Part shown: positions 606 to 53,200 of the stretch, in pieces
Numbering within the stretch: the first letter of the stretch is position 1
Layout: each line of letters starts with the position of its first letter
Source of the DNA: Ptychomitrium polyphyllum
Lineage: Eukaryota
Reading direction: 5' to 3'
Length of the DNA stretch: 64,000 bases
NCBI GenBank assembly: GCA_973851085.1
Contig: OZ316776.1
Span: 13,950,001-14,014,000 of the forward strand
Notes under the pieces: model-generated
What the model was told of the DNA's origin: nothing
The model's input: only the letters and a program-made list of their open reading frames with translations
Databases searched by the model: none
Program-made: the position numbers and the translations under genes

Positions 606-2157
606 GGCTATTTATGCCCCGAGTTCTGACCACCTAGCCAGCCAGTCAGCCAGCAAAAGCAAAGCAAAGCAGTGAACACCAGTGCAGCAGTGCGCGAAAC
701 GCTGAGGCTGAGGGCGTCTTGTGGGGGAGGGGTAGGGCGTGGGCCGACGTCAGAAGACTCGTACGCAGAAGAGCACCGCAATCACTCACCACAATCCCTA
801 TTCGGGCGTGCACAGAAGACACCGCGCGGGTTTGAGCACAATCCCTGTGGTGCGCAAGAAAACCCAAAAGACAAGAGCCGAAGCACAAGTTGAAGCTGAA
901 GCACACGACGACGACGTTGAAGGGCTCTGAGCAGGGGACACAATGAATAACAATCTCTCTTACTACAATACTCTGCTCATGCAGTCTGTAGTACTAAGTT
1001 CAACGACCCTCCCTCCCTCCCTCCCTTTTCCCGTTTTGGTCTGACTACGCTGTTCTTACCGTGGACCACTCCGTCGCATCTTCCCTAATCGAGGCCCCCT
1101 CACTTCTCTGGGCTCACCCCTCCCCCGCCTCTGCCCTCTGTGTTGGAAGGGACCGATAGAACTCATCTACTATTGGATGATAAATTCCAAGAGATGGTAA
1201 CATCATATCCACTATGATTCATTATGTTTTATAATCAAGACGGGTTTCATTGATTCTGAGCTATGATCAAGAAGAGTAGAAGGGCTATGCTGTCCAATAA
1301 TGTTTTGCAATTATGCAAGGTAAAAAGCTATGCTCTTTATTAACAATTTCTTTAATTATCATGTTAATTAAGCAAAAGGAAAGCGGTGAAATGCAAACAG
1401 ATTTTTAAGCTGAAATTATGGTGATGTAAGTACACAATGATACAAAACATGATTGTTGGCTAAGAATATTTTTCTTGTGAAGAAAGGTACTGTTAACTTT
1501 TTTAATAGTTCATTGGTGACAAATTAGGTTCTAATTGAAGTTTATTTGCAGTTGATGTAGCATAGGATTTGGATTTTTCAAGATGGATGTCTAACTGACT
1601 TTTATCAAACAACAATCTTCAAAGAAATTAATATGGAAAAATTTCAAGTATATAAAGAACAAAAAAAAAACATGGTGAATTAATTCTAAAGGACCATTTA
1701 TAGCTTGAAATAATCATTGTATATATGGAACCAAAACAATTATAGTTTTAAAGTGTTTTTTGGCTCTATATGTCTCAAGGAAATTTAATAAAATTCTAAG
1801 GTTATAATATTGGATGTAGCATTTATAAAGTACAAAAAGCACTTTTGAAACTATTTTATTTTAATTATTATAATTTCGTAATTTATAGCCATTTATTGTA
1901 ATTGAGTTTATGGTTGTTCAAATCTATTTAAAATTAATAATTTGGTTGGATTTGTAGACTTGTCAAGTGGCAAAGTTACATTACTTTTTGCCTTCAATTG
2001 AACTTGCATCCATCAATTGTAAAATAAATAGAATTTGATTAGCAAAGAATCATGTAGTAGATTGCAAATGCAAAGATAAGCTACTAGTTGTTAAGGTTTT
2101 TGAAAGGTGATACTAAGGCAAATCTCATTCTTGCATTTTTTTACTTATTTTATTTAT

Positions 2158-2438
2158 TGAAACTATGCAACAAACATAGTACAACAAACAAGAAGAAAGA
2201 GCAAAGTTGCAACAAAAGAAGTGTGGAGCAAGATGACTCCCACTTCCAAAACCCCTTTACTTATTCTTGAAAGTCATCCAACAAAGTATGCCATTTGGCG
2301 GCCATGCATTTGCCTCCACTAAATGAATGACATGTAGCGGCAAATCCTACTTGCCGTAGCCGCAATCCTAACCCTCATGGCCGCCCTAACCCTAGCCACC
2401 ATACAGAGCCCTTGTTGCCTATTCTTAATCCTAGCCTC
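2158..2438 (-). mobile_element. Older partial copia family A LTR, inverted, cut by a family B LTR
   Basis: Reverse complement aligns to the 3' two-thirds of the LTR at 4473-4897. It ends abruptly at TGTTGGAG (2439). Confidence 0.85.
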
Positions 2439-4383
2439 TGTTGGAGAATAGAGCATTGAATTGCTCGTAGTCTTAGAACTAGTATGGAATAGAGTTAATA
2501 AGTTGAAATGGAGATCATTAGAATAAACCCATATTGTTTGGAGTGGGTCGAAGATTTATTCCATATTGATTGTAAGACTCATGTGGTTTGAAGAGAATAA
2601 AGGGCAAAGCAAGCAGTGGGATTAATACTCTCTTTCCAAGCATTGGTCGCATACTTTGTGTACTATGAGTGCTTGTGGAATCATTTCTCCTCACTTATTG
2701 AACTTCAATAGGGTATGCTTGTTGTGTGAGTTGAGATTTGATTGCGTTAGTGTTTGGACGAGCATCTTAAGAGTCTTCTGTTGGATGTGCATTTGTGCGT
2801 TTTTGGTGCCTTTGAGCAATTTGGAGAGCCACAAGGGCTGATTTGGAGGTGCTTGGAGGCGATACAAGCTTTGGTGGTGCACAAGTTCCCATTTGGAGGC
2901 GTTTGGAGAAGTTTGGTGCAGTGGAAGTATCGTTGAGTACACTTTCGGCTTGTAAGTTTTGCATTTAGTATTTGAGTTTCATGTGAGGTGCGTTTGTGCA
3001 CAATTGATGCTTGTTAGTATTTGAAGCTTGTGCTTTAAGAGCTTGGGTGCTTTGGGTGCGTATGTGAAGCCATTGAAGGCTGATTGGTGTGTTTGAGGTG
3101 CATAAGTGCATATTTGAATGTTAGTGCGTGTATAGGGCATTTATCCATTGTTGGTGCACTTGAGGGCTGATTTGAGTGGAGAGGGTGCAAAAGTACACAT
3201 TTCAAGCCCCATTGAGTGGTGAGGAAGCATTTGAGGCTGATTGGGCGTTGGTAGGGCTCATTTGGCGTTGATAGGAGTGCATAAGTGCACATTTGGGCCT
3301 AAAAGGATCGTTTTGAGGTGATTGAGTGTACTCGTGCACAATGGCATCCTTGGAGGGTGAGAGTGCTCAAGTGGTTGACAAGTTCAATGGCGAGAACTTT
3401 AATCTTTGGAAGTTCAAAATGGAGATGGTGTTGGATTCCATGGACCTTTGGGAGATTGTGGAGGACACTGAGGAGGCTCCACCTTCTAATGCCGACCTCA
3501 AGACCATCAAGGAGTACAGAAAGCGTGTGAAAAAGGCCATGTCAGTCATTGGACTCAACTTGGTGGATAGCCAACTTGCCCACATCAAGAGTTGCAATGG
3601 ACCCGCGCAAGCATGGAACACCCTTTGCAACATCCACGAGACTAGGAGCTTATCCAACATCCTCTTCATAAGGCGAAGGTTCCTCACGTGCAAGATGTTG
3701 GAGAGTGATGACTTGTTAGACCATATTAACAAGGTCAAGGCTTTGGCCGACCAATTAGCTTGCTTGGATTCACCCATGAGGGATGAGGACATTGTCATGA
3801 CTTTGCTTGATAGTTTGCCCCCTTCGTATGAGTTCTTGATCATCGCATTGGAAACAATACCTATGAAGGAATTCACTTTGGAGGTGGTAACGGCAAGATT
3901 GATGCATGAGTTCACCAAGAGGAAGGAGAAGGCACTCCAAGGTGATGATGCGGCAATGGTATCACGTCAAGGCAAAGGAGATAATGCATCTTTCACCAAG
4001 GATACAAGGACATGCTACTATTGTGGCAAAGCGGGTCACATTGCAAGGTTTTGTTTCAAGGCCAAGAACAAGGAGAGGGAGACTGCACACATTGTTGATG
4101 ATTGCTCATTTGTAATTCATGTTGATGATCCATTGAAAGGCCTTTGCAAGTGGATCATGGATTCGGGAGCCACCAAGCACATGACTCCTTACAAAGAGGC
4201 ATTCCACACCTATGGGGTAACCTCTTCACAAAATGTACACATGGGAGATGATAGCATTGTAGAAGCCATTGGTGTGGGTTCTATCGTTGTGGAGACCGTG
4301 GTGGGAGGGCAATCAAAGTGCATTTGCATCCATGATGCCCTCCATGTGCCTATATCGAAAGCAAACATGATTTCGGTGAGCAA
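2439..4383 (+). mobile_element. Copia family B 5' fragment: LTR 2439-2707, deleted PBS, 5' UTR, gag-protease
   Basis: LTR TGTTGGAG...CTTCA is homologous to 15224-15452. The PBS is collapsed (ATAGGGTATGCTTG versus ATAGGTTATGGGCCCACACATGCTTG in the minus copy near 14330-14349). Confidence 0.85.
3341..4383 (+). pseudogene. Truncated copia B gag-protease ORF
   Basis: MASLEGES..., zinc knuckle CYYCGKAGHIARFC, protease WIMDSGATKHM. The frame runs into an inverted LTR B fragment at about 4384. Confidence 0.9.
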
Positions 4384-4472
4384 GCTTGGAATGAGAGTAA
4401 TCATCCCATTCCTTGCTCTGCGCTTTATTCTCATCAAACCACATGGATCTTACAATCAATATGTGATGAACT
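4384..4472 (-). mobile_element. Inverted internal fragment of LTR B
   Basis: GCTTGGAATGAGAGTAATCATCCCATTCC... matches the inverted LTR B at about 14377-14465. Confidence 0.8.
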
Positions 4473-4900
4473 TGTTGCAAAGTGTGAAACATATAAAGTA
4501 ATCCTAGTTGAAGTATCCTTGTGTAGACTTAGAGCATGATATGTTGCTAATGATCAAAGGGGTGTGAGGAAAGAGGCTATAGGGGATATGGAGGCTAGGG
4601 TTAAGAAAAGGCAACAAGGGTTTTGTATGGCGGCTACGGTTAGGGCGGCCATTAGGGTTAGGGCGGCCGTTAGGGTTAGGGTGGCGGCTACGGCGGCTAG
4701 GGTTAGGGTTAGCCGCCACATGTCACTCATATAGTGGAGGCTAATGCATGGCCGCCAAGTGGCACATTTTGGTGGATGACTCTCAAGTATAAGTAAAGGG
4801 GTTTTGGAAGTGGGAGTCATCTTGCTCCACACTTCTCTTGTTGCAACTTTGCTCTCTCTCTTCTTGCTTGTTGTACTAGCTTTGTTGCATTTCTTCAATA

Positions 4901-4914
4901 GGTTATGGGCCCAC
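4901..4914 (+). promoter_or_regulatory. Primer-binding site complementary to the anticodon arm of tRNAiMet (half-tRNA type)
   Basis: GGTTATGGGCCCAC lies 3 nt after the LTR and is the reverse complement of GTGGGCCCATAACC in plant tRNAiMet (sequence recalled). Also present at 11045 (+), about 14333-14346 (-) and, degenerate, about 16354-16366 (-). Confidence 0.9.
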
Positions 4915-5348
4915 TCACACTTAGTTGTGCCTTTTGAAGTAGCTTGAAGTGTTTTGTAGTTGTTGTTCTTGTGTGGAGCAAGATCACTTCATAGTTATTG
5001 AAGATAGAGTTAGAAACGCCTAACTTTGAAGTTTTGCACATGTAGGTGCTTGGTTTGATGTTTCTTGAGCTCTTGGGATTGTGGTTGTTGAAATTCCTTG
5101 GATAGTGAGTTGTTTTGAGTGGTGATAAGACCTTGATAGTGTCTTTGTTGGATTCAAGCTTCCTAACACCATTTTGTTGTGCTTGGTGTTGTTGTCTTGT
5201 GAGTTCATTGATATGTGTGCTCATTGAGTGGACATAGTGAGTTGAAAGGTCTTTCTTGGGACTCATAGTTGTGAAGACTTGTGAGAAGCATAGGAGTCAA
5301 GGAAATAGTTCGTTTGAAGGTTTGTTTTGTTACCTCTCTTCTTAAGCC

Positions 5349-8300
5349 ATGGCTTCGAGTGAAGGTGAAGGTCTTAGGGTCATTCAAAAGTTTCATGGTG
5401 ATAACTTCTACCAATGGAAGGTTAGGATGGAGCTCTCGTTGGCTTCTATGGACCTTTGGGACATCATAGATGAGAGTGAGGTTGCTCCACCATTGTCGGC
5501 AGATGCAAAGGAGAGGAAGGAGTTCCAGCGTCGTGAGAAGAAGGCTTTTGGCATCCTTGCCACCAACCTTGATGATGCCAACTTCGCCCATATCATCTCT
5601 TGCACTGGACCAACAGAAGCGTGGAAGACGCTTTGCAACATCTATGAGAGCAAGAACCTCTCCAACATCATCTTCACAAAGAGGAAGCTCTTGAACTGCA
5701 AGATGGAAGAAGGCCACGACCTCATGGCGCATGTTAACAAGTTGAAGGCCCTTGCAAGGCAAGTTGCCATTGTGGACAAGCCATTGGACGAGTCGGATGT
5801 TGTGATTACATTGCTCATGAGTTTGCCGGAGTCCTATAGCTATCTCATAGTGGCCTTAGAGTCCATTCCCATCAAGGACCTCACCATGGACTATGTGACG
5901 GCGAGATTGAGCCACGAGGACACCAAGAGGAAGGAGAAGGCGAATTCAAGTGAGGACTCCGCCCTCTTCTCGAGGCAAGGCAAGGCCACCTATTCTAATC
6001 AACGTCCAAATCTTCGAACGTGCTTTGTGTGTGGAAAACCAGGTCATTTTGCTCGAAATTGCTTCAAGGCCAAGAAAGGAGAGAGGGAGGATGCCAACCA
6101 TGTGATGGACCACCTTGGAGGTGGTGATTGTGCCTTCATGGCAAGCGAGGGGGCGCCTATGGCGGCCCTATCCAAGTGGATAGTTGATTCGGGCGCCACA
6201 AAGCACATGACTCCTTACAAGTGCTCATTCCATACTTATGAGGCAATTGCAGCCACTAGTGTGCTCATGGGTGACAATGGCGTGGTGGAGGCCATTGGAA
6301 TGGGTTCCATTGTGGTGGAGGTTGTTGTGGGAGGCAAGACCAAGAGGATCACCTTCAAGGACGTGCTGCATGTGCCAAAGATGAAGTCCAACCTCCTTTC
6401 GGTGAGCAAACTTGTGATGGGAGGGTTTGTGGCTCATTTCAATGTGAATGGATGTATTGTGAAGTCATTGAGTGGAGATGTGGTTGCCACGGGGTTGAGG
6501 GATGGCAACTTGTACTTCATCAAGTGTAAGAAGGTGAATGGAGTGGAGGTGGCGGCCTTTGCTGAGTTCATTGAAGACCAAGACAAGTTTGGCATATGGC
6601 ATGGGCGCCTTGGGCACCTCAATGTGAAGGCCATGAAGGAGCTCCAAGGCGTGGTAAGCGGCTTGGATCTCGGTACAACATGCCACAAGGCCAAGGAACT
6701 TGCTTGTGAGGCTTGCATCCAAGGCAAGCAGCAAAGGGCGTCGTTTCCAAGTGGAGTGGCAAGTCGTGCAAGCAAATTGTTGGAGATTGTGCATTCCGAC
6801 GTGTGCGGGCCTATGAGGACTCCATCCATCGGGGGAGCAAGGTACTTCCTCACCTTCATTGATGATAATTCGAGGAAAGTATGGGTGTTCATCCTCAAGG
6901 CCAAGAGCGAATGCTTTGCAAGATTCAAGGAGTTCAAGGCGCTTGTGGAGAAGCAATGTGAGTCCAAGATCAAGGTGTTGCGTTCGGATAATGGTGGTGA
7001 GTTCTTATCCAAATGTTTTGATGACTTGTTGAGGAGTGAAGGCATTGCAAGGCAAACCTCCACTCCATACACTCCACAACAAAATGGAGTTGCTGAGAGG
7101 GCAAATCGCACCATTGTGGAGATGGCGAGGAGCATGCTTCATGCCCAACATCTTGGACATGAGTTGTGGGCGGAAGCGGTGGTGAATGCGGTGTACACAA
7201 GAAATAGGTGCCCCACAAGTGCCCTTGCATCCATGACCCCCGAAGAAGCTTGGAGTGGTAAGAAGCCTTGTGTTTCACACATGAGGACCTTCGGATGCCT
7301 TGCATATGCAAAGGTTCCAGATTGCATGAGGTCCAAGCTTGATGCAAAGGGTACAAAGTGTGTGTTCTTTGGTTATTGTGAGGGCAGCAAAGCATATAGG
7401 TTGATGTGTGTGGAGAGCAAGAAGATCATCAAGAGTCGTGATGTTGAGTTCTTGGAGCACAAGAGTGCTTGTGAGCACTTGGGGATGTGTCCAAGTGGGA
7501 GTAATGGTGTGATTGTGGACACATCCTCCACAACAACCAAGGAAGAAGGTGGAGATGTGGATGGAGGTGAAGGAACAATGGAGGGGGAGAGCAAGGCGAC
7601 TTCCACCCTTAAGACCAGCAGAGGAGCCTCACAAGATGATGGTGAGCATCTTCATCCAAGTGAGGAGGATAATCCTGTAAGTGAAGGAGAAGGGGATGCA
7701 TTACAAGAAGAGAGGCCTGCAATGAGTGGAAGGAGGTATCCCATGAGGGAGAGGAGGCCACTTGGTGAATGGTGGAAGAACCACATCTTTCCAAAAGTGA
7801 GTGCAGAACATGCCAATGTTGCCCTCCTCGTTGATCCTTTAACTATGTGCGATGCCTTGAAGTCCACGGATGCAATGAAGTGGGAGAAGGCCATGGAAGA
7901 GGAGTACAAGTCGCTGATGGACAATGGCACATGGCACTTGACTCAACTTCCTCCAAATCGTTCTTGCATAGGTTGCAAGTGGGTGTTTAGAACCAAGAGG
8001 GATGCTTCGGGTGCAATTGTGAGGCACAAGGCAAGGCTAGTTGCCAAAGGATACTCACAAGTTGCTGGTGTGGACTTCAATGAGACCTTTGCACCTGTGG
8101 CCAAGTTCACCACCATTATGACCATCTTGGCCATAGCTGCGGCAATGGACTTGGAGGTGCACCAGATGGATGTGAAGACGGCCTTTCTAAATGGAGAGTT
8201 GGAAGAAGACATCTACATGGAGCAACCTCCAGGGTTTGTACATGAAGGCTTGGAACACCTTGTTTGCAAGTTGAAGAAGGCCTTGTACGGGCTTAAGCAA

Positions 8301-9382
8301 TCGCCAAGGGCATGGTACCAACGCATTGATGCATTCTTTAGGAAGGAAGGGTTTGTGAGAAGTGAGGCGGATCATTCCTTGTATGTGATGCAGACCATGG
8401 AATTCTTGTTGATTGTGATTCTCTATGTGGATGACTTGATCATGTTGGCCAACCTTTTAGAGAAGCTAGAGTGGTTGAAGGCCAAATAAGAGCAGGAGTT
8501 TGAGATGAGTGATTTGGGCGAGTTACACTATTGTCTTGGAGTGGAATTTGTGAGGGATCGTGCAAAGAGGACCATCACCATGAGCCAGAAGAAGTGTTGT
8601 TGAAGCGATTCAACATGGAAGAGTGCAAGCCAGTGGGAACGCCTTTGGAGGCAAACTTGAGGTTGATGAAGCTAAGTGATGAGGAGTATGCTCAAGTGGA
8701 GGGCGAAATGCAAGGCGTTCCATACAAGGCCGGAGTGGGGTGCCTCATGTATGCCATGGTGGGCACAAGGTTTGATCTTGCGTTTTCGGTGAGTGTTGTG
8801 AGCCAACACATGTCCAAGGCCGGCTCCATGCACTGGGCAACCATCAAGAGGATCATGAGGTACTTGAAGGGCACCTTGGACTTTGTGTTGTGTCTGGGAG
8901 GTGATAACATTGAGTTGCAGGGATTTTGTGATGCGGATTGGGCTGGAGATGCAAATGATAGGCGCTCCACAACGGGGTATGTGTTCTTTGTTGGAGTGGG
9001 AGCCATCTCTTGGAACTGCAAGAGGCAACCCACAATTGCAAGGTCAACCATGGAGGCGGAGTACATGGCGGCAAGTCATGGTGCAATGGAAGCAATGTGG
9101 CTGAGGCAACTCTTTGAGGACATTGGACTTGTACAACTGGGTGCAACGCCCATCATGTGTGACAATCAGGGATGTCTTGCCTTTGCCAAGTATCCCAAGC
9201 ATCACTCACGAACAAAGCACATTGACATCCAACATCAGTTCATAAGAGAAAAGATTGAAGATGGAGTGATAGATATGAGGTATTGTGCAACAGAGGGCAT
9301 GCTTGCTGATTTGTTGACAAAAGCATTGGTAAGAGATAAACACCAGTTGTTGACGAGGTCAATTGGATTAAAGGCCCTTTGA
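5349..9382 (+). pseudogene. Copia gag-pol polyprotein with a premature stop and a frameshift in late RT
   Basis: CFVCGKPGHFARNC knuckle, DSGA protease, WHGRLGH...CEAC and HSDVCGP/SDNGGEF/NGVAER integrase, YVDD RT, DADWAG...RTKHID RNase H. TAA at 8487-8489, then EQEFEMSDLGELHYCLG continues in frame, with a frameshift near 8595. Confidence 0.95.
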
Positions 9383-9825
9383 CCAGTAGCAAAGTGGGCG
9401 TGTTGCAAAGTATGAAACATATAAAGTAATCCTAGTTGAAGTATCCTTGTGTAGACTTAGAGCATGATATGTTGCTAATGATCAAAGGGGTGTGAGGAAA
9501 GAGGCTATAAGGGATATGGAGGCTAGGGTTAAGAAAAGGCAATAAGGATTTTGTATGGCGGCTAAGGTTAACGCGGCCATTAGAGTTAGGGCGGCCGTTA
9601 GGGTTAGGGTGGCGGCTACAGCGGCTAGGGTTAGGGATAGCCGTCACATGTCACTCATTTAGTGGAGGCAAATGCATGGCCGCCAAGTGGCACAGTTTGG
9701 TGGATGACTCTCAAGTATAAGTAAAGGAGTTTTGGAAGTGTGAGTCATCTTGCTCCACACTTCTCTTGTTGCAACTTTGCTCTCTCTCTTCTTGCTTGTT
9801 GTACTCGCTTTGTTGCATTACTTCT

Positions 9826-10616
9826 CTAATGGCCGCCCTAACCCTAGCCGCCATACAAAACCCTTGTTGCCTTTTCTTAACCCTAGCCTCCATATCCCCT
9901 ATAGCCTCTTTCCTCACACTCCTTTGACCATTAGCAACATATCATGCTCTAAGTCTACACAAGGATACTTCAACTAGGATTACTTTATATGTTTCACACT
10001 TTGCAACACTCCCACTTTGCTACTGGTCAAAGAGCCTTTAATCCAATTGACCTCGTCGACAACTGGTGCCTATCTCTTACCAATGCTTTTGTCAACAAAT
10101 CAGCAAGCATGCCCTCTGTTGCACAATACCTCATATCTATCACTCCATCTTCAATCTTCTCTCTTATGAAGTGATGTTGGATGTCAATGTGCTTTGTTCG
10201 TGAGTGATGCTTGGGATACTTGGCAAAGGCAAGACATCCCTGATTGTCACACATGATGGGCGTTGCACCCAGTTGTACAAGTCCAATGTCCTCCAAGAGT
10301 TGCCTCAGCCACATTGCTTCCATTNNNNNNNNNNNNNNNNNNNNNNNNNNNNNNNNNNNNNNNNNNNNNNNNNNNNNNNNNNNNNNNNNNNNNNNNNNNN
10401 NNNNNNNNNNNNNNNNNNNNNNNNGGTTTTCCACACACAAAGCACCTTCGAAGATTTGGACGTTGATTAGAACAGGTGGCCTTGCCTTGCCTCGAGAAGA
10501 GGGCGGACTCCTCACTTGAATTCGCCTTCTCCTTCCTCTTGGTGTCCTCGTGGCTCAATCTCGCCATCACATAGTCCATGGAGAGGTCCTTGATGGGAAT
10601 GGACTCCAAGGCCACT
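9826..10616 (-). mobile_element. Inverted copia A copy: partial 3' LTR 9826-10008, PPT 10009-10018, RNase H to 10324, gap, gag fragment 10425-10616
   Basis: Reverse complement is near-identical to the RNase H, PPT and LTR of copy 1 and to gag VALESIPIKDL...CFVCGK. Confidence 0.9.
10325..10424. other. Assembly gap (100 N)
   Basis: Run of exactly 100 N. Confidence 1.
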
Positions 10617-13600
10617 TGTTGCAAAGTGTGAAACATATAAAGTAATCCCAGTTGAAGTATCCTTGTGTAGACTTAGAGCATGATATGTTGCTAATGGTCA
10701 AAGGCGTGTGAGGAAAGAGGCTATAGGGGATATGGAGGCTAGGGTTAAGAAAAGGCAACAAGGGTTTTGTATGGCGGCTAGGGTTACGGCGGCCATTAGG
10801 GTTAGGGCGGCTGTTAGGGTTAGGGTGGCGGCTACGGCGGCTAGGGTTAGGGTTAGCCGCCACATGTCACTCATTTAGTGGTGGCAAATGCATGGCCGCC
10901 AAGTGGCACATTTTGGTGGATGACTCTCAAGTATAAGTAAAGGGGTTTTGGGAGTGGGAGTCATCTTGCTCCACACTTCTCTTGTTGCAACTTTGCTCTC
11001 TCTCTTATTGCTTGTTGTACTAGCTTTATTGCATTTCTTCAATAGGTTATGGGCCCACTCACACTTAGTTGTGCCTTTTGAAGTAGCTTGAGGTGTTTTG
11101 TAGTTGTTGTTCTTGTGTGGAGCAAGATCACTTCATTGTTATTGAAGATAGAGTTAGAAACGCCTAACTTTGAAGTTTTGCACATGTAGGTGCTTGGCTT
11201 GGTGTTTCTTGAGCTCTAGTAGGGTTGTGGTTGTTGAAACTCCTTGGATAGTGAGTTGCTTTGAGTGGTGATAAGACCTTGATAGTGTCTTTGTTGGATT
11301 CAAGCTTCCTAACACTATTTTGTTGTGCTTGGTGTTGTTGTCTTGTGAGTTCATGGATATGTGTGCTCATTGAGTGGACATAGTGAGTTGAAAGGTTTTT
11401 CTTGGGACTCATAGTTGTGAAGACTTGTGAGAAGTTTAGGAGTCAAGGAAATAGTTCGTTTGAAGGTTTGTTTTGTTACCTCTCTTCTTAAGCCATGGCT
11501 TCGAGTGAAGGTGAAGGTCTTAGGGTCATTCAAAAGTTTCATGGTGATAACTTCTACCAATGGAAGGTTAGGATGGAGCTCTCGTTGGCTTCTATGGACC
11601 TTTGGGACATCATAGATGAGAGTGAGGTTGCTCCACCATTGTCGGCAGATGCAAAGGAGAGGAAGGAGTTCCAGCGTCGTGAGAAGAAGGCTTTTGGCAT
11701 CCTTGCCACCAACCTTGATGATGCCAACTTCGCCCATATCATCTCTTGCACTGGACCAGCAGAAGCGTGGAAGACGCTTTGCAACATCTATGAGAGCAAG
11801 AACCTCTCCAACATCATCTTCACAAAGAGGAAGCTCTTGAACTGCAAGATGGAAGAAGGCCACGACCTCATGGCGCATGTTAACAAGTTGAAGGCCCTTA
11901 CAAGGCAAGTTGCCATTGTGGACAAGCCATTGGACAAGTCGGATGTTGTGATTACATTGCTCATGAGCTTGCCGGAGTCCTATAGCTATCTCATAGTGGC
12001 CTTGGAGTCCATTCCCATCAAGGACCTCACCATGGACTATGTGACGGCGAGATTGAGCCACGAGGACACCAAGAGGAAGGAGAAGGCGAATTCAAGTGAG
12101 GACTCCGCCCTCTTCTCGAGGCAAGGCAAGGCCACCTATTCTAATCAACGTCCAAATCTTCGAACGTGCTTTGTGTGTGGAAAACCAGGTCATTTTGCTC
12201 GAAATTGCTTCAAGGCCAAGAAAGGAGAGAGGGAGGATGCCAACCATGTGATGGACCACCTTGGAGGTGGTGATTGTGCCTTCATGGCAAGCGAGGGGGC
12301 GCCTATGGCGGCCCTATCCAAGTGGATAGTTGATTCGGGCGCCACAAAGCACATGACTCCTTACAAGTGCTCATTCCATACTTATGAGGCAATTGCAGCC
12401 ACTAGTGTGCTCATGGGTGACAATGGCGTGGTGGAGGCCATTGGAATGGGTTCCATTGTGGTGGAGGTTGTTGTGGGAGGCAAGACCAAGAGGATCACCT
12501 TCAAGGACGTGCTGCATGTGCCAAAGATGAAGTCCAACCTCCTTTCGGTGAGCAAACTTGTAATGGGAGGGTTTGTGGCTCATTTCAATGTGAATGGATG
12601 TATTGTGAAGTCATTGAGTGGAGATGTGGTTGCCACGGGGTTGAGGGATGGCAACTTGTACTTCATCAAGTGTAAGAAGGTGAATGGAGTGGAGGTGGCG
12701 GCCTTTGCTGAGTTCATTGAAGACCAAGACAAGTTTGGCATATGGCATGGGCGCCTTGGGCACCTCAATGTGAAGGCCATGAAGGAGCTCCAAGGCATGG
12801 TAAGCGGCTTGGATCTCGGTACAACATGCCACAAGGCCAAGGAACTTGCTTGTGAGGCTTGCATCCAAGGCAAGCAGCAAAGGGCGTCGTTTCCAAGTGG
12901 AGTGGCAAGTCGTGCAAGCAAATTGTTGGAGATTGTGCATTCCGACGTGTGCGGGCCTATGAGAACTCCATCCATTGGGGGAGCAAGGTACTTCCTGACC
13001 TCCATTGATGATTATTCGAGGAAAGTATGGATGTTCATCCTCAAGGCCAAGAGCGAATGCTTTGCAAGATTCAAGGAGTTCAAGGCGCTTGTGGAAAAGC
13101 AATGTGAGTCCAAGATCAAGGTGTTGCGTTCGGATAATGGTGGTGAGTTCTTATCCAAATGTTTTGATGACTTGTTGAGGAGTGAAGGCATTGCAAGGCA
13201 AACCTCCACTCCATACACTCCACAACAAAATGGAGTTGCTGAGAGGGCAAATCGCACCATTGTGGAGATGGCGAGGAGCATGCTTCATGCCCAACATCTT
13301 GGACATGAGTTGTGGGCGGAAGCGGTGGTGAATGCGGTGTACACAAGAAATAGGTGCCCCACAAGTGCCCTTGCATCCATGACCCCCGAAGAAGCTTGGA
13401 GTGGTAAGAAGCCTTGTGTTTCACACATGAGGACCTTCGGATGCCTTGCATATGCAAAGGTTCCAGATTGCATGAGGTCCAAGCTTGATGCAAAGGGTAC
13501 AAAGTGTGTGTTCTTTGGTTATTGTGAGGGCAGCAAAGCATATAGGTTGATGTGTGTGGAGAGCAAGAAGATCATCAAGAGTCGTGATGTTGAGTTCTTG

Positions 13601-13968
13601 GAGCACAAGAGTGCTTGGGAGCACTTGGGGATGTGTCCAAGTGGGAGTAATGGTGTGATTGTGGACACATCCTCCACAACAACCAAGGAAGAAGGTGGAG
13701 ATGTGGATGGAGGTGAAGGAACAATGGAGGGGGAGAGCAAGGCGACTTCCACCCGTAAGACCAGCAGAGGAGCCTCACAAGATGATGGTGAGCATCTTCA
13801 TCCAAGTGAGGAGGATAATCCTGTAAGTGAAGGAGAAGGGGATGCATTACAAGAAGAGAGGCCTGCAATGAGTGGAAGGAGGTATCTCATGAGGGAGAGG
13901 AGGCTACTTGGTGAATGGTGGAAGAACCACATCTTTCCAGAAGTGACTGCAGAACATGCCAATGTTGC
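10617..13968 (+). mobile_element. Copia family A copy 2, 3'-truncated: LTR 10617-11041, PBS 11045, gag-PR-INT ORF from 11495
   Basis: Protein nearly identical to copy 1 up to ...AEHANVA, then it switches into inverted family B UTR. Confidence 0.95.
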
Positions 13969-14578
13969 CAATCAGCCTTCAATGGCTTCACATATGCATC
14001 CAAAGCACTCAAGCTCTCAAAGCACAAGCTTCAAATACTAACAATTTTCAATTGTGCACAAACGCACCTCACATGAAACTCAAATACAAAATGCAAAGCT
14101 TACAAGCCTACAACGATACTTCCACTGCACCAAACTTCTCCAAACGCCTCCAAATGGGAACTTGTGCACCACCAAAGCTTGTATCACCTCCAAGCACCTC
14201 CAAATCAGCCCTTGTGGCTCTCCAAATGCTCAAAGGCACCAAAATTGCACAAATGTACATGCAACAAAAGACTCTCAAGATGCTCGTCCAAACACTAACG
14301 CAATCAAATCTAAACTCACACAACAAGCATGTGTGGGCCCATAACCTATTGAAATACACAAAGTATGCGACTAATGCTTGGAACGAGAGTAATCATCCCA
14401 TTCCTTGCTCTGCCCTTTATTCTCTTCAAACGACATGAGTCATACAATCAATATGGGATAAATCTTCCACCCACTCCAAACAATATGGATTAATTCTAAT
14501 GCTCTTTAATTTAACTAATTACCTCTATCCTATACTAACTCTAAGACTACGAGTAATCTAATGCTCTATTCTCCAACA
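13969..14578 (-). mobile_element. Inverted copia B 5' end: LTR 14350-14578, PBS, 5' UTR
   Basis: Reverse complement of a 229-bp TGTTGGAG...TTTCA LTR, then ATAGGTTATGGGCCCAC. The UTR matches 2715-3090. Confidence 0.92.
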
Positions 14579-15452
14579 CATGGTTGGTACAAGGTTTGAT
14601 CTGGCAGTTTCGGTGAGTATTGTGAGCCAACACATGTCTAAGCCCGGCCCCATGCATTGGGCAAGCATCAAGAAAATCATGAGGTATTTGAAAGGCACCT
14701 TGGACTTTGTGTTGTGCTTAGGAGGTGACAATATAGAGTTGCAGGGGTTTTGCGATGCAGACTGGGCTAGAGATGCAAATGACAGGCGTTCCACAACGGG
14801 CTATGTGTTCTTTGTGGGAGTGGGAGCCATCTCTTGGAATTGCAAGAGGCAACCTACCATTGCAAGGTCAACCATGGAGGCGGAATACATGGCTGCAAGT
14901 CATAGTGCAATGGAGGCAATGTGGCTAAGGCAACTTTTGGAGGACATCGGACTTCTGCAAGTGGATGCAACGCCCATCATGTGTGATAACCAAGGATGTC
15001 TGGCGTTTGCCAAGAATCCCAAGCACCACTTAAGAACAAAGCACATTGACATTCAGCATCACTTCATAAGAGAAAAGATGGAGGATGGAGTGATAAATAT
15101 GAAGTATTGTGCAACGGAAGGAATGCTGGCAGATTTGTTTACAAAAGCATTGTTGAAGGATAGACACCACCTGCTGACAAGGTCACTTGGCTTACAAGCC
15201 TCGGACTACTTGCAAAGTGGGAGTGTTGGAGAATAGAGCATTAGATTGCTCGTAGTCTTAGAGTTAGTATGGGATAGAGGTAATTAGTTGAAATGGAGAG
15301 CATTAGAATTAACCCATATTGTTTGGAATGGGTGGAAGATTTATCCCATATTGATTGTAAGACTCATGTAGTTTGAAGAGAATAAAGGGCAGAGCAAGGA
15401 ATGGGATGATTACTCTCATTCGAAGCATTAGTCGCATACTTTGTGTGTTTCA
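14579..15452 (+). mobile_element. Copia B 3' end: RT end and RNase H (14580-15236), PPT 15214-15223, 3' LTR 15224-15452
   Basis: MVGTRFDLA...DADW...RTKHIDIQHHFIRE, PPT AAAGTGGGAG, and a 229-bp LTR. Confidence 0.93.
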
Positions 15453-15543
15453 ATGGGTTATGGGCCCTCCACGCTTCCGCTGCGCAGCTGAAGCGTGGTG
15501 GGTCCATAATCTATTGAAATACACAAAGTATGCGACTAATGCT
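15424..15543. repeat. 120-bp near-perfect palindrome: LTR B end + antisense tRNAiMet 5' half + sense tRNAiMet 5' half + inverted LTR B end
   Basis: Centre TGC|GCA at 15483/15484. The arms are reverse complements with a handful of mismatches. Confidence 0.95.
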
Positions 15544-15609
15544 CTTCATTTCAAGTAATTACCTCTATCCCGTACTAGGATTACTTTATATATTTCACAC
15601 TTTGCAACT

Positions 15610-16795
15610 GTTCATGCTTTCATAAATGTTGCAAAGCATGTTCCACGCTTCTGCTCGTCCTATGCAAGAGATGATATGGGCAAAGTTGGCATCATTAAGG
15701 TTGGTGGCAAAGATGCCAAAAGCCTTCTTCTCACAACGTTGGAACTCCTTCCTCTCCTTTGCATCCGCCGACAATGGTAGAACAACCTCACTCTCATCTG
15801 TGATGTTCCCATGGTCCAAAGAAGCCAACGAGAGCTCCATCCTAACCTTCCATTGATAGAGGTTCTCACCATGAAACTTTTGAATAACCCTCAAACCTTC
15901 GCCTTCACTCAAAGCCATGCCTTAAGAAGAGAGGTAACAAGCGAACCTTCAAACAAACTATTTCCTTGACTCCAATGCTTCACACAAGTCTTTACAACTA
16001 TGCGTCCAAAGACAAGCCTTTCAACTCAGTATGTGCACTCAATAAGCACACGTATCAAAGAATTCACAAGCCAACAATACCAAGCACAACAAAATGGTGT
16101 TAGGGAGCTCGAATCCAACAAAGACACTATCAAGGTCTCATCATCACTCCAAGCAACTCACTATTTAAGGAGTTTCAACAACCATTACCCTACTAGCGCT
16201 CAAAAAACATCAAACCAAGCACCTACATGTGCAAAACCTCAAAATTAGGCATTTCTAACTCTATCTTCGATAACTTTGAAGTGATCTTGCTCCACACAAG
16301 AACAACAACTTCAAATATTGCAAGCTTTTTCAAAAAGCACAACTAAGTGTGAATGGGCCCATAAACTATTGAAGAAATGCAACAAAGCTAGTACAACAAG
16401 CAAGAAGAGAGAGAGCAAAGTTGCAACAAAAGAAGTGTGGAGCAAGATGACTTCCACTTCCAAAATGCCTTTACTTATACTTGAGAGTCATCCACCAAAG
16501 TATGCCACTTGGCGGCCATGCATTTGCCTCCACTATATGAGTGACATGTGGCAGCTAATCCTAAATCCTAGCCGCCGTAGCCGCCACCCTAACCCTAACG
16601 GCCGCCCTAACCCTAATGGCCGCCCTAACCCTAGCCGCCATACAAAACCCTTGTTGCTTTTTCTTAACCCTAGCTTCCATATCTCCTACGGCCTCTTTTT
16701 TGATACTCTTTTTACTATTAGCAATATATCAAGCTCTAGTCTTACACAAGGAAATTTCAACAAGGATTATTGTATATATTTCACACTTTGCAATA
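15610..16795 (-). mobile_element. Older inverted copia A 5' end: LTR 16370-16795, PBS, UTR, gag start (ATG 15918)
   Basis: MALSEGEGLRVIQKFHGENLYQW... is a diverged copy of the A gag. The LTR reverse complement aligns to 4473-4897. Confidence 0.9.
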
Positions 16796-16809
16796 ATATT
16801 TGTTATTTG

Positions 16810-18200
16810 ATGTATTTGAAAAAAAATATTAGGAAAAAGAAATAATTAAAATGTAAAAGGATTGTGGTCAATCCACAATTTTCATTTGTCTTGGAAGTGA
16901 AAGCACATCTTGTCTTAGCTCAGGATAATTAGGCCGGTTGACTGTAGTTTTTTCTGCCTACCGTTTTTGCTAGTAGTATTAAGTCAAGTGCTGCCGTTTT
17001 ATTTAATGAATCCGACAAGAATCAAACATAGACCGGTTCAGCAGCTGGAACTTATTTAGTCAACCAAGTTCATGACTTGGTGTTTGATCCTATCTTGAAA
17101 ATGATTTTATTCTTAACTTGTTTCTTGTTGAATTTCAATCTTTTTCTCACTTTCTTTAATTTATTTTAGTTATTTAGTTTCTATTTTAGACTTGTGAAAG
17201 TTGATTTTAACTTATTAGTAGTTGAAACCTATATTTCAACCCAAAAATAAAAATAATAAATAATAAATAATAAAAAATTGAGGTTGTTTTTATTTGAAGA
17301 TATGGTTTGATAAAGGTTTGATAAAGGAGATTAGGGGCTGATGTAGAGAGATATAACTGATGTGAAGTGATAAGGGGCGGATGTGGCGGTTTGACCACCG
17401 CCTTCTTCTTCACTCTCAATCTCTCCCATTAGACTAAGAAGATAGCCCTTCTTGGAGTAAGATCTCATAATATATTTCTTAGTTTGAATTGGTTTTTATT
17501 GGATTTTGTTTTTTTCTTTGTAAACTTTCTAAAAAGTTATCACAAGCTCCATTTGAAATTAGTATGTGGTTGAAGTTTTAGTTTGAGTAAAAGTTAAGTT
17601 AGTTGCCTTGAGTTTCTGGAGACAACTATTTGAATGTTTGTAACTTCTTGTAAAAACATCTTTTGTAAGAAAAAGGTTCTAATTACTTTGAAAAGATGTT
17701 ATCAAAATTTGGTGAGCATTGAACTTCTTGAGCAAAAGAAACAAAGAAAAATGCAATTGGAACTTAGAGGGCAGTGTATAGTAGAATTTGGAGTTGCACA
17801 ATTTGGATCATTGTAGATGATTGAAGGAATTTCTAAGGTTGATCTTTTGACAAGGTGTTTATTATAAGATATTTATTATGTATAAAAATTTTGAATATTA
17901 AATATGCGATAGAAGCAGAGTTATGAAGTGGTAAAGTGATAGAGGTATAGAAACTATAGCAATGAAGAATGTAAATTTTGAAGTTATAGATCTTAGAAGG
18001 TGCTAAGGTTTTGGCAACCAAAATTTATATATAGCTTAATAAATGTGTTAAGAATATTTTGTTAAAATTTTAGGTGCTTTGGATTAGTTTGCTAGAGGTT
18101 ATGACACATTTAGCATTTGGAATTTTCAAAGCAGCGTATAGAAAAAATTTGGAATAGAGTATTTGCTTCATTGGATATTAGAAATAGAAACTCTTCATGC
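16810..18200. repeat. Decayed dispersed repeat, probably retrotransposon internal sequence; second copy at about 49800-51000
   Basis: Colinear direct similarity, for example AACCAAGTTCATGACTTGGTG and GGTTTGACCACCGCCTTCTTCTT in both copies. Confidence 0.75.
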
Positions 18201-30597: not shown

Positions 30598-30761
30598 GGT
30601 GACAGAGCGAGGGCATGAGAGAGGGAGAGAGAGCAGCGCAGCACTAAACAGACAGACACAGCAAACGCGCGATGAACAGTGCAACGCAACTCTCTCGCTT
30701 GCTCGCTCGCTCTCGCTCTCTCTCTCTGTCTCTGCGCGTTTTCTCTAGTACGCTCTACAGC

Positions 30762-30899
30762 GTGAGGGTGAGGGTGGAGGTGAGGGTGGTGGTGCAGGTG
30801 AGGGTGGTGGTGCGGGTGAGGGTGGTGGTGAGGGTGAGGGTGGTGGTGAAGGTGAGGGTGGTGGTGAAGGTGAGGGTGGTGGTGAAGGTGAGAGTGGTG
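30762..30899. repeat. G-rich 18-bp minisatellite (GGTGAGGGTGGTGGTGAA-like) upstream of EFR3
   Basis: About 7 imperfect tandem units are visible. Confidence 0.9.
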
Positions 30900-30946
30900 T
30901 AATTCTAGGCTCCCCACGGCCCCTCCGGAATTGTCATCTTATTACA

Positions 30947-50259: not shown

Positions 50260-53200
50260 TTAAGTTTTTTTTAATTTAAAGATATGGTTAGATAAAGGCT
50301 TAATAAAGGAGATTAGGGGCTGATGTGGAGAGATAAAGCTAATGTAGAGTGATAAGAGGCAGATGTGACGGTTTGACCACCGCCTTCTTCTTCTCTTTTG
50401 GCCTCTTCTTTCCTCTTGGCCTCTCCACTAGAATAAAAGGCAATCCTTTCTTTGGGTGATGGATATAACAAACTTCTTATTTTGAATTGATTTTTCTTAG
50501 GTTTTTTTTCTTTTGTTTGTAGGCTTTTTAAAATGTCATTACACGCTCCATTTGGAGTTGTTATATGACAATGGCACTAGTTTGAATAAAATTGGTCCAG
50601 CTACCTTGAATTTTTAAAAGGAGCTGCTTTTAGTGCTTATAACTTTTTGTGGAAAAGGTCTTTGAAGATGAAATTTCGAGGGTAGTATTTTGACTACTTA
50701 AAAATAATGGTGTAAAATTTTTGAAAAAAAAGGGCTTTTGTGGTAGGAGTTGTAGGAGAATATGTAACCGGGTTTTAGAAGGCAGTATACAACAGAGTTG
50801 GAATTATATATTTTGGCTATAAAAAAAGATTGGAGAAGTTTCTAAGATTGATATTTTGGTGAAATGTTTATTGTAAGATAAATTGTATGTATAAAACTTT
50901 TAAAATCTAGATTCATGGTGGAAAAGAAGTCATAAGGTGGTAAAGTGAGGAAATGTGGTGAGAAGGATGAAAGCTTTGATTGCATGGTTCTCAATGAATA
51001 TAGCAACTATGATTATGAAAATTTTAGAATAGTTTTTGCATGCTTTTAAAAACATAGTGCCAAAATATCAAGGTCATTGGACTTTGGAATAGAAAATATG
51101 GACAAATTTGTAAGCAAAATGTTGAGGGCAGTACATGGTTATGGTTTGGATTTGGATTGTGAACTTTACAAAGTATGTAAAATATGATAAACAAACTTTT
51201 GCACATAATTGACTTCAATTATAACACCATTTTATCAAATTATTGAGGAATTAGTAGTAACTAGAAGCTCGGTGTTTTTTCAAAGCAAGGCTTTCTTTCT
51301 ATGACAATGTGATATGGCATCAAGTGCTTAAGTGATGTAGTGATTGACTTACAAGAAAATACTTGAAGGAATATTTTTCAACAGTTAACTACAACATAGA
51401 CTTGCAATTGTTGCAGATTATAATAATTATCTTAAATTTGATATTTAATTGAATTAAATGTATTATTACATTAGAATTTTTCAAATAAGCTTTTTAAAAT
51501 TATTTTTATAAAGGATGTAGTATTATTTCATTTTTTGAACATCAATCATTTTCTACACTAAAATATAAACCTTTCATATGCTTTTCAATCATCACATTTT
51601 AAAATAAGGATTTAAATAATCTCTATAAAAACCTCCTTTAAATAATTATAATTTTTTTGTAATAATATTATATAAACAACATTCAATAAGAGATAAAGTT
51701 TTATATATGTCATTCTTTGCTCTTTATTTGTAAAAATTAAACAAAATAATTCAAATAAAGTGGTTTAATAAAAAAAAAATATATTAACATTATCATGTAT
51801 TCCATGTATATATTAATTTTTAATGGCATAGTATACATAAAGTGTATATTAAATAAATTCAATGTTTTATTGTATTTTCATCTTAAATTGCATTAAATTC
51901 ATTCATTTGTCTTCAAAAAATTTGGAATGTTTTCATTCATATAAATGATTTTGTATGTATATCTTTATAATAGAGAAATATAGTAAAAACATATTTTAAA
52001 TTACTTGTTAAAGCTTTTGAAAGAGGATATAAGGATTAAAAAATCATTCCTTTGAATTGTTTCAATCAATTTTTTTTTCTTTATTTTTTTTAAACCATTT
52101 GGATTGTTCAAGGTATAGCCACATATAGGCAGGAATTGAAATATAATTGGCAATAGAATAGGAAAATTTTCATCCAACATTAAGAAAAGGTTTTATTGTT
52201 TTAAAAGTTATTTGATGGAACATAATTTTTTATTTATTTTATATATGTGTGGAGTCATTGTGTTTGTAACCTAATTTACAAATTTAATTAGTAGGCCTAA
52301 TTAATTATTTGAAAGAAGTCTTAAGACTATGAAGCCAGATTTGGAAGTGATGAAGTATTTATAATATGCCCAACTTAAGAATGTTTTGATGTGCAATTTT
52401 TTTTTTAATCAACTACATGAATTAAAAATTATAATTCTTTCTACATCATACAAGAAAAATAAATAAAAACTTATTTTAAAAATACTCAAATTCAAATAAA
52501 ATAGTTGACCATTCAAAATTCTTCATCAAGTTAAATTAATTTTTGTATAAAAGAAAGCAATGAAGGCATATATTAACAAGCAAGACAATATTCTTTTTAA
52601 AAATAAAAAAATATAATAATCAAAATGATAAATTTCTTAAAGTTTATGGTAAAACAATGCAAAAAATAAATTTCCGTAATACATAATATTCTAATGCAGA
52701 AAAAAATCACTCTTACTATCCAATATTATTTTCTCAAAGTAATATAAGTTTTTTGAACTATATTCACTGTACCTCATCAATGGTCCTTTGTTCCGTATAG
52801 ACATAAATTCAGACCTTTAGTAAGTTCACACCAAAAATGAACTATCAGTTTTCAATATCTTGTCTTAACACATGTGGCTTGTCCAAAATGTGCATATGAA
52901 TCTGTGGACAATGGTTGGCCCATTTTTAAGAAAAATTACCATTCCAAGCCTCTCTAAACCACAAACACAGGTGAATCCATGTTTATAGAATGTTATGTAG
53001 AATATCGTAGAATAATAAGTAGAATTCCTCCTTAAGTAAGTTTTGAGCTTGGAAATGACAACGGAAGATGGTGCTTGTTGCGAAGCTTCTGCCTCAGCCA
53101 AGTAAATTTACTCGCAAGTCATATCTGGTTATAGACTACATAATTGTCGACCAACCTGCAATTCCACATGCACATCGCTAACACTCGGCATCATAGAACC

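What the first reader, a model, noticed from the sequence alone, without database searches (positions are those of the whole stretch)
15424..15543. Genomic fossil of a reverse-transcription intermediate: LTR followed by a tRNAiMet-half palindrome centred on GCGC
Seen: a true 3' LTR (preceded by RNase H and a PPT) does not stop at CA. It continues GGGTTATGGGCCCTCCACGCTTCCGCTGCGC (15455-15485), 30/31 identical to the reverse complement of nt 10-40 of plant tRNAiMet as I recall it. That is far beyond the 14-nt PBS encoded by the element. The sequence then mirrors itself back into the LTR. Inference: plus-strand synthesis copied the half-tRNA primer as far as G10, plausibly stopping at modified m1G9. 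The self-complementary GCGC end then folded back or annealed to a second cDNA, and the product was captured in the chromosome. This would be direct sequence evidence for half-tRNA priming and for where RT stops on the primer. It is also a possible hairpin small-RNA source.
Basis: partly seen in the sequence, partly recalled or inferred. Interest (0 to 1): 0.82.

Follow-up and report, generated by a model that had tools for sequence, protein, structure and literature searches.

The report
Primer-tRNA copy fossilised between two LTRs
A plant copia-type jumping gene ends in a 30-letter DNA copy of part of the initiator tRNA that is joined head-to-head to a second such copy, likely a frozen by-product of its reverse transcription that would show which half of the tRNA primes these elements and roughly where copying of the primer stops.

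Summary
A Ty1/copia 3' LTR (15224-15455) runs into 30 nt complementary to tRNA-Met nt 10-39 (29/30 against a published Arabidopsis sequence), then a mirror copy (27/30) and an inverted LTR piece; the two copies share a 4-nt self-complementary word with no spacer. The family's normal primer site is 14 nt; none of 28 primer-site hits in 80 related loci carries the extension. New here: the element's own 5' LTR is probably 2439-2661, and the whole element plus palindrome fills a gap in an older LTR (nt 119-428 left, nt 2-36 right). Arm divergence (9/94) equals its LTR-pair divergence (21/223), so the palindrome likely dates from insertion. Best reading: plus-strand run-through into an unremoved half-tRNA primer, joined to a second primer-tailed LTR. 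Corrections: this lineage's LTRs end 3 nt beyond the CA, so the copy is nt 10-39; a stop at G10 fits but is not proven (blunt joining at nt 12 gives the same letters); in-cis fold-back needs a loop. Read support and small RNAs are untested. The scan noted two similar primer-copy fossils in other genomes.

The parts
2155..2438 (-). Older family-A LTR, nt 119-428: left half of the insertion target
   Evidence: 254/284 identical to LTR A nt 119-428
2439..2661 (+). Family-B 5' LTR (last 8 nt and primer site deleted); probable partner of the 3' LTR at 15224
   Evidence: 21 differences in 223 nt to 15224-15446; the target-to-LTR junction is also present as a joint in run X1 (table 5c, 16674 to 15224 with 3 letters between)
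2662..4383 (+). Family-B leader, gag and protease
   Evidence: Pfam Retrotran_gag_2, zf-CCHC, Pol_BBD; 55% amino-acid identity to family-A residues 1-358
14333..14346 (-). Normal 14-nt primer site of another family-B copy (control); followed by one bulged base and 7 more partly tRNA-complementary bases, then leader
14579..15209 (+). End of RT and RNase H of the family-B element
   Evidence: 88% amino-acid identity to family-A residues 1130-1336; 182/210
15212..15223 (+). Polypurine tract
   Evidence: same tract plus TG in 39 of 80 related loci
15224..15455 (+). Family-B 3' LTR, 232 nt
   Evidence: 13 differences in 231 nt to the 5' LTR at 14578-14347; LTR end defined
15456..15485 (+). Complement of initiator-type tRNA-Met nt 39 to 10 (left primer copy)
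   Evidence: 29/30 by eye against PMC10344777 supplement 5; lacks the bulge of the element's own site
15482..15485 (.). 4-nt self-complementary word (tRNA nt 10-13) shared by both copies; centre of symmetry between 15483 and 15484
15482..15511 (-). Second primer copy, inverted
   Evidence: 27/30 by eye; 4 differences between the two copies
15512..15543 (-). Inverted family-B LTR, nt 232 to 201
   Evidence: 32/32 to the copy at 14347-14378
15536..15577 (-). Inverted family-B LTR, nt 83 to 42; joined to the previous piece through an 8-nt microhomology (nt 84-200 missing)
   Evidence: 39/42 to the left LTR
15574..15608 (-). Older family-A LTR, nt 36 to 2: right remnant of the insertion target, joined through a 4-nt microhomology; target nt 37-118 missing
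   Evidence: 34/35 to LTR A nt 2-36; nt 37-125 of LTR A found nowhere else that fits this copy
15610..16795 (-). 5' LTR, primer site, leader and part of gag of the founder family-A element of the nest
   Evidence: 89.5-89.9% to 10616-11803 and 4472-5657; outer flanks 2150-2154 and 16796-16800 agree at 4 of 5

Best explanation
The 3' LTR of a copia element is followed by a DNA copy of tRNA-Met nt 39 to 10 and by a second, inverted copy with its own LTR piece, likely because reverse transcriptase ran through the unremoved half-tRNA primer on two molecules whose ends then probably annealed through the shared 4-nt self-complementary word and were fixed when the element inserted. Steps: (1, inferred from the 14-nt site and from Osser/Bryco/Gymco-II, copia and Ty5) the 5' 39 nt of initiator tRNA prime minus-strand synthesis. 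(2, product shown, enzyme inferred) plus-strand synthesis copies the still-attached primer past the 14-nt site; the first Watson-Crick-blocking base on that path would be m1G9, leaving an end at or near nt 10. (3, inferred) such an end carries the self-complementary word at its very 3' tip; a full-length cDNA and a second primer-tailed LTR copy, most simply a displaced plus-strand strong-stop product from the same particle, pair over 4 nt and are filled in. (4, layout shown, route inferred) the product, element + palindrome + inverted LTR, entered an older family-A LTR at nt 118/119; the inverted LTR would have given it a second normal U3 end. (5, shown) two microhomology joins (8 and 4 nt) removed LTR nt 84-200 and nt 1-41 together with target nt 37-118, so no target duplication is left. 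It is a decayed one-off scar with no sign of function.
For: tRNA match of both arms (by eye; for chance). Arms follow the tRNA, not the element's bulged site, from nt 25 on. Normal ends never carry it: 0 of 28 primer-site hits in 80 loci extend in register; of 122 LTR-end-like words in those loci 24 precede a primer site and 98 precede other DNA, none tRNA-like on reading (many of the 98 are chance words, 29 are clear ends of two families). The left LTR is a 3' LTR, which has no primer site of its own. The target LTR is split around the element: nt 119-428 left of 2439, nt 2-36 right of the palindrome. Arm divergence 9/94 (9.6%, Wilson 5-17%) equals 5'/3' LTR divergence 21/223 (9.4%, 6-14%), Fisher p = 1.0. 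No spacer at the centre. A longer, 6-nt self-complementary word at tRNA nt 28-33 was not used, which fits joining at the tip rather than after resection. Human initiator tRNA has m1G9, which blocks RT, while m2G10 and m2G26 are not seen by RT (PMC7293042 passages). In Ty3 the first plus-strand strong-stop DNA copies into the tRNA and is displaced (PMC5371799 passages). The base at 15455 is tRNA-type (nt 40) on the left arm and LTR-type on the right, a weak hint of two primers cut at different places.
Against: One copy only; no recurrence in 80 metagenome loci (407,927 bases including 7 viral loci) or in the 1 viral-collection locus (not scanned for it). Pairing of 2439 with 15224 as one element is by nesting logic and divergence, and 11 kb of later insertions lie between. 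The divergence match has wide intervals and does not separate from the young family-A pair (18/424; p = 0.07). The right junction is deleted, so integrase-type entry cannot be shown. The right arm shares neither of the 2 changes private to the left LTR end, which fits two molecules or later mutation equally. The stop position is confounded with the only 4-nt palindrome beyond the primer site. In a related locus (L043 8058-8150) two LTR ends face each other across 25 nt of near-palindromic non-tRNA DNA, so mirror junctions at LTR ends also arise without a primer copy. The host's own tRNA and its modifications were not seen. No listed contig spans the centre.
Confidence: 0.6

Rival explanations
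1. Same reverse-transcriptase origin for the primer copy, but only one molecule: the 5' end was integrated, the primer-tailed 3' end could not be, and host repair copied that end back (on a sister chromatid or by template switching), jumped twice by microhomology and rejoined the resected target.
For: Two microhomology joins and 82 nt of lost target directly beside the palindrome; no target duplication; a mirror junction at an LTR end without tRNA in L043; age match to insertion fits this too.
Against: A hairpin made in cis needs a loop and the centre has none; a sister fusion needs the break to survive replication; the two arms differ at the LTR/tRNA boundary base.
Confidence: 0.25
2. DNA-level capture: the LTR was the middle LTR of a tandem (PPT before, primer site after), and a broken end at the primer site invaded a genomic tRNA-Met gene, copied 16 more bases and was closed at the 4-nt palindrome.
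For: Tandem elements sharing an LTR are described (PMC11899658 passages) and RNase H-LTR-primer-site layouts occur in several loci (some may be collapsed assemblies); the left arm also agrees with the tRNA at nt 40-41.
Against: No tRNA gene in the window; needs three independent events; no downstream tandem unit is left; does not predict an end beside G9; the split target places the junction exactly at the element's right end.
Confidence: 0.08
3. Assembly or library artefact (fold-back chimera).
For: The region is repetitive and has a 100-N gap at 10325-10424; no listed contig spans the centre.
Against: The arms differ by 6 substitutions and no indels, as much as the element's LTR pair; a fold-back read cannot supply tRNA nt 10-25; the right arm leads into the missing half of the target LTR.
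Confidence: 0.04
4. A family-B variant encodes a 30-nt primer site, and the palindrome is an ordinary rearrangement of two 5' ends.
Against: The one intact family-B site diverges after 14 nt; 0 of 28 hits extend in register; the left LTR follows a PPT and RNase H.
Confidence: 0.03

Closest known systems
Half-tRNA-Met-primed Ty1/copia elements: Bryco, Osser, part of Gymco-II (Neumann et al. 2019, PMC6317226, passages); Drosophila copia and yeast Ty5 (cited in PMC10886601 and PMC5371799, passages); ICTV Hemivirus (PMC8515867, whole text)
   Same: Copia domain order; primer site complementary to the anticodon arm of initiator-type tRNA-Met, directly after the LTR.
   Different: In the plant lineages the passages I saw infer the primer from complementarity only. 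Here a DNA copy of the primer's 5' part is in the chromosome. Lineage membership was not tested by phylogeny.
Plus-strand strong-stop DNA that copies into the primer tRNA (Ty3: 12 nt, then displaced, PMC5371799 passages; HIV-1: end set by modified A58, PMC3832253 passages)
   Same: Reverse transcriptase copies the attached primer; a modified base is thought to set the end.
   Different: Those primers are whole tRNAs copied from the 3' end; here the copy runs from the anticodon stem to nt 10, 16 nt past the primer site, and is chromosomal and doubled.
Primer or PBS insertions at HIV-1 2-LTR circle junctions after faulty RNase H removal (PMC5618025 passages)
   Same: An unremoved primer leaves tRNA-derived DNA after U5 at an LTR-LTR junction.
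   Different: Those are U5-to-U3 joins in episomal circles; this is a U5-to-U5 mirror join, fixed in a germline.
Capture of Ty1 cDNA at yeast double-strand breaks and Ty5 cDNA recombination into tandems (recalled; Ke and Voytas 1997 seen only as a reference entry; Ke et al. 1999 not held)
   Same: Reverse-transcription products enter chromosomes by routes other than clean two-ended integration.
   Different: Here one end looks like a normal insertion into another LTR and the other end is an inverted primer-tailed LTR.
RLC5/tRLC5 clusters of Physcomitrium patens (PMC7466625 and PMC11899658 passages)
   Same: Copia elements that pile into each other, many truncated.
   Different: This nest is about 15 kb; identity with RLC5 and the host species were not tested.

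Membership tests
Ty1/copia (Pseudoviridae) | gag-protease-integrase-RT-RNase H order between two LTRs, RVT_2-type RT | tested here: met
   Pfam on family A 5346-8486: Retrotran_gag_2, zf-CCHC, Pol_BBD, rve, RVT_2 in that order; family B gag-protease and RT-RNase H align to it
Ty1/copia (Pseudoviridae) | PPT directly before the 3' LTR | tested here: met
   15212-15223; same tract plus TG in 39 of 80 related loci
Half-tRNA-primed copia (Hemivirus-type) | primer site complementary to the anticodon arm of initiator tRNA-Met, not to its 3' end | tested here: met
   4 ordinary sites in the window, 3 of family A and 1 of family B; match to nt 26-39 of the printed tRNA-Met (by eye)
Half-tRNA-primed copia (Hemivirus-type) | a cut tRNA is the primer in particles | not testable with these tools
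   needs particle RNA or cDNA ends; the fossil is indirect support
Bryco lineage (REXdb) | clusters with Bryco references in RT, RH and INT trees | not tested
Bryco lineage (REXdb) | moss host | tested here: inconclusive
   host not given; the primer site matches a land-plant tRNA-Met; named flowering-plant homologues reach at most 47% identity
Bryco lineage (REXdb) | 1/2 tRNA-Met primer site | tested here: met
   shared with Osser and part of Gymco-II, so not diagnostic
Over-extended plus-strand strong-stop product | LTR U5 end joined without gap to a complement of the primer that goes beyond the primer site | tested here: met
   15455/15456 junction; 16 of 16 nt beyond the 14-nt site match on the left arm
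Over-extended plus-strand strong-stop product | end at a modified base of the primer | tested here: inconclusive
   end lies at nt 10-12, beside G9; m1G9 seen for human tRNA only; overlap hides the exact end
Clean integrase insertion | intact ends and a 5-nt target duplication | tested here: not met
   left junction intact at 2438/2439; right junction lacks LTR nt 1-41 and target nt 37-118
microRNA precursor (Rfam) | score at or above the family's gathering threshold | tested here: not met
   best 46.8 bits against 100 (MIR862); generic hairpin matches

The most novel reading that the evidence does not exclude
A rescue route for dead-end cDNA in all half-initiator-tRNA-primed copia elements: copying stops at m1G9, which leaves a self-complementary 4-mer at the tip; a full-length cDNA and a displaced strong-stop LTR pair there inside the particle, and the inverted LTR gives integrase a second U3 end. 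The result is an element that inserts with a built-in LTR-primer palindrome, a ready hairpin and fragile site, and a genomic record of tRNA modification state several per cent of divergence ago.
Probability: 0.3. Interest if true: 0.75.

Novelty: new variant of a known kind. Interest (0 to 1): 0.58.

Why it matters
For plant half-tRNA-primed copia lineages the primer is inferred from a 14-nt complementarity. This scar is physical evidence that the tRNA's 5' part, down to nt 10-12, was attached and copied, and it points to where plus-strand synthesis ends on such a primer, a step for which my ten literature searches gave no description. It makes a sharp, cheap prediction: LTR + primer copies in genomes and in extrachromosomal cDNA should end at nt 10-12, and mirror joins should centre on tRNA nt 10-13. 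It is one decayed event with no shown function, and primer copies at LTR ends are known from HIV-1 circles and Ty elements, which caps the interest.

Tried and rejected
No whole genome is held, so host tRNA genes and other family-B copies could not be listed; ARAGORN found 0 tRNA genes in the window, in 7 of 7 viral loci and in 47 of the 80 metagenome loci that I scanned. Rfam gave no tRNA match at E up to 10 in 15200-15700, only sub-threshold hairpins. The 17-nt motif in viral contigs gave 7 loci, none with a tRNA gene; treated as chance. A protein scan of viral contigs gave 1 marginal locus. Sequencing runs: 5 listed, best share 0.42, no RNA holder listed. Contigs of 4 runs laid on 14250-16850 covered all 30 bins in X1 and X2, but the tables were cut and no listed piece spans the centre, so read support is neither shown nor denied. 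The homologue search named no bryophyte. My idea that the 14-nt site ends at a blocking G26 methylation was dropped: human initiator tRNA has m2G26, which RT does not detect; the plant state is unknown. A long mirror duplication of 10617-15485 was rejected: the right-hand family-A copy is 91% to 10617 while 4473 is 97%, and its flank is unique DNA. All 4 transitions between the arms keep G-U pairing on the + strand; 1 in 16 by chance, not taken as evidence of selection. Papers with nothing on the question in the passages seen: PMC7175516, PMC9362929. Searches for a prior description of a chromosomal half-tRNA primer copy listed none by title or abstract start; the library lacks most older and subscription papers, including Ke et al. 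1999.

Full report
Observation. The stretch is as described. 15424-15543 is a palindrome of two 60-nt arms with no spacer and 6 mismatched pairs; it is the only one my scan found in the window and folds far better than shuffles (z = -18, 0 of 200). Against the Arabidopsis tRNA-Met printed in supplement 5 of PMC10344777 (compared by eye), 15456-15485 matches the complement of nt 10-39 at 29 of 30 and 15482-15511 matches nt 10-39 at 27 of 30. The two copies overlap in a 4-nt self-complementary word, tRNA nt 10-13. That this tRNA is the initiator species is my knowledge; the paper says tRNAMet. The host's own tRNA could not be fetched.

Setting. Positions 2155-16795 are a nest of Ty1/copia elements of two families: A, with a 428-nt LTR, and B, with a 232-nt LTR. 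Four ordinary primer sites lie in the window (4901, 11045, 14335-14346, 16355-16366), each complementary to the anticodon arm of tRNA-Met, the type reported for Bryco, Osser and part of Gymco-II (PMC6317226 passages). So 15455 is the last LTR base and the primer copy starts at nt 39.

Is the extension the family's ordinary site? No. The intact family-B site at 14333-14346 has 14 matching bases, one bulged base and 7 more partly matching ones, then leader; both arms lack the bulge and follow the tRNA. In 80 related metagenome loci 28 primer-site hits were found; none extends in register (best 22 of 30), and the distal 17 nt alone hit only gag, 4 times with 2-3 mismatches. Three more distant elements (L060, L068, L086) do carry extra D-arm-like complement after the site, out of register. 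The left LTR is a 3' LTR: RT and RNase H (88% to the family-A protein end) and a PPT shared by 39 of 80 loci precede it.

What lies right of the centre. Read outwards: second primer copy, LTR B nt 232-201 (32/32 to the copy at 14347), an 8-nt microhomology jump to LTR B nt 83-42, a 4-nt microhomology jump to LTR A nt 36-2, then gag of a reversed family-A element. At the far left, 2155-2438 is a reversed LTR A covering nt 119-428, and a family-B 5' LTR starts at 2439 in the same orientation as the 3' LTR at 15224. The two LTR A pieces are complementary halves of one LTR, with nt 37-118 missing; the outer flanks of the founder element agree at 4 of 5 bases (weak, AT-rich). The simplest nesting is founder A, then B (2439 to 15455, plus the inverted piece), then a reversed B (14578 to 4384), then younger A copies. 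The junction at 2438/2439 also appears as a joint in run X1 (table 5c). The B 5' and 3' LTRs differ at 21 of 223 sites; the two sides of the palindrome, with the nt 42-75 continuation, at 9 of 94 (p = 1.0). The intervals are wide, but the palindrome sits at the element's right end and is as old as the element. That ties it to the insertion rather than to a later accident.

Mechanism. Shown: a U5 end fused to a primer complement running 16 nt beyond the primer site, twice, head to head. Inferred: reverse transcriptase copied an unremoved 39-nt primer. In human initiator tRNA the modifications on this path are m2G26 and m2G10, which RT does not detect, and m1G9, which blocks it (PMC7293042 passages), so an end at nt 10 is the prediction, and nothing beyond nt 10 is present. 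The junction cannot prove it: ends at nt 11 with a 2-nt overlap, at nt 12 joined blunt, or longer ends trimmed to the palindrome give the same letters. That the longer 6-nt palindrome at nt 28-33 was passed over favours joining at the tip. A hairpin formed in cis would leave a loop, so pairing in trans is preferred: a full-length cDNA with a second primer-tailed LTR, such as the displaced first-round strong-stop DNA described for Ty3 (PMC5371799 passages). Filling in would give U3 ends on both sides, a substrate for integrase; two later microhomology deletions would explain the missing 117 and 123 nt. The main rival is one-ended integration followed by repair that copied the blocked end back; it explains the same deletions in one event, and L043 shows a mirror junction at an LTR end with no tRNA in it. 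I put the RT origin of the primer copy at about 0.85, split 0.6 for two molecules and 0.25 for one. Capture from a genomic tRNA gene (0.08), artefact (0.04) and an element-encoded long site (0.03) remain.

Against and open. It is a single copy. No listed contig spans the centre, and the tables were cut, so read support is open. One contig of run X3 (another organism) is laid up to 15484 and then goes on for 107 letters that are not tRNA nt 9-1 (table 7); it may be an independent copy ending at nt 10-11, but its other side was not shown and I do not count it. No RNA run was listed, so the small-RNA idea is untested; Rfam gives only sub-threshold hairpin scores. Bryco membership and the host were not established.

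Known and new. Half-tRNA priming is known; copying into the primer and a stop at a modified base are known for whole-tRNA primers; primer insertions occur at HIV-1 2-LTR junctions; capture of Ty1 cDNA at breaks is recalled. Six searches aimed at a chromosomal copy of a half-tRNA primer listed none, but older papers on Ty5 and copia are not held. This scan has noted two related fossils on other DNA (e1-7164468, e1-7808317), neither checked here and neither described as a mirror join. Verdict: real; a new variant of a known kind of by-product; informative about mechanism, without function. Interest 0.58.

Noticed in passing
window 16367 and loci L015, L018, L019, L024-L026, L029, L031, L033, L038, L043, L062, L072, L076, L077, L083: LTRs of this lineage end in ...AATA (TG..TA type) with the primer site directly abutting, not in CA; tools that demand TG..CA would misplace or miss them.
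   Followed up: yes
window 14325-14346, 4901-4922, 11045-11066: Both families extend the 14-nt primer site by one bulged base and about 7 more partly tRNA-complementary bases; similar in L010, L017, L022.
   Followed up: partly
L043 8058-8150: Two 3' LTR ends of one family face each other across 25 nt of near-palindromic non-tRNA DNA, inside a 508-nt inverted duplication: a fold-back-like junction at an LTR end in a related genome.
   Followed up: partly
L060 5306-5345; L086 1141-1170; L068 403-432: More distant copia elements have, after the anticodon-arm site, a second block resembling the complement of the tRNA D-arm (bipartite or long primer sites).
   Followed up: no
run X3, contig with loose end behind window 15484: A contig from another organism follows the window up to tRNA nt 11 and then continues for 107 letters of AT-rich non-tRNA DNA; possibly an independent primer copy with nearly the same end.
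   Followed up: no
window 14579-15223 against 8755-9400; 3380-4397 against 5388-6423: Families A and B are 87% identical in RT/RNase H but 65% in gag-protease and have unrelated LTRs: possible exchange of the RT-RNase H module between families.
   Followed up: partly
window 9085-9585 and 9824-10324: A second inverted pair (501 nt, 97%): a reversed family-A copy abuts a truncated 3' LTR; a 100-N gap lies at 10325-10424.
   Followed up: no
window 2155-16795: The whole 14.6-kb nest is made of two copia families inserted into each other's LTRs and coding regions, as if self-targeting, resembling RLC5 clusters in miniature.
   Followed up: partly
window 30741-30917: 18-nt tandem repeat (7 copies in register) inside a 231-aa frame on the minus strand, probably a proline-rich protein; no Pfam match.
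   Followed up: no
window 60024-60653: Frame with a sperm-tail PG-rich (SHIPPO) repeat match, E = 2e-6.
   Followed up: no
window 16807-17939 and 49793-50948: A 1.1-kb AT-rich repeat, 72% identical, flanks the nest on the right and recurs 33 kb away.
   Followed up: no
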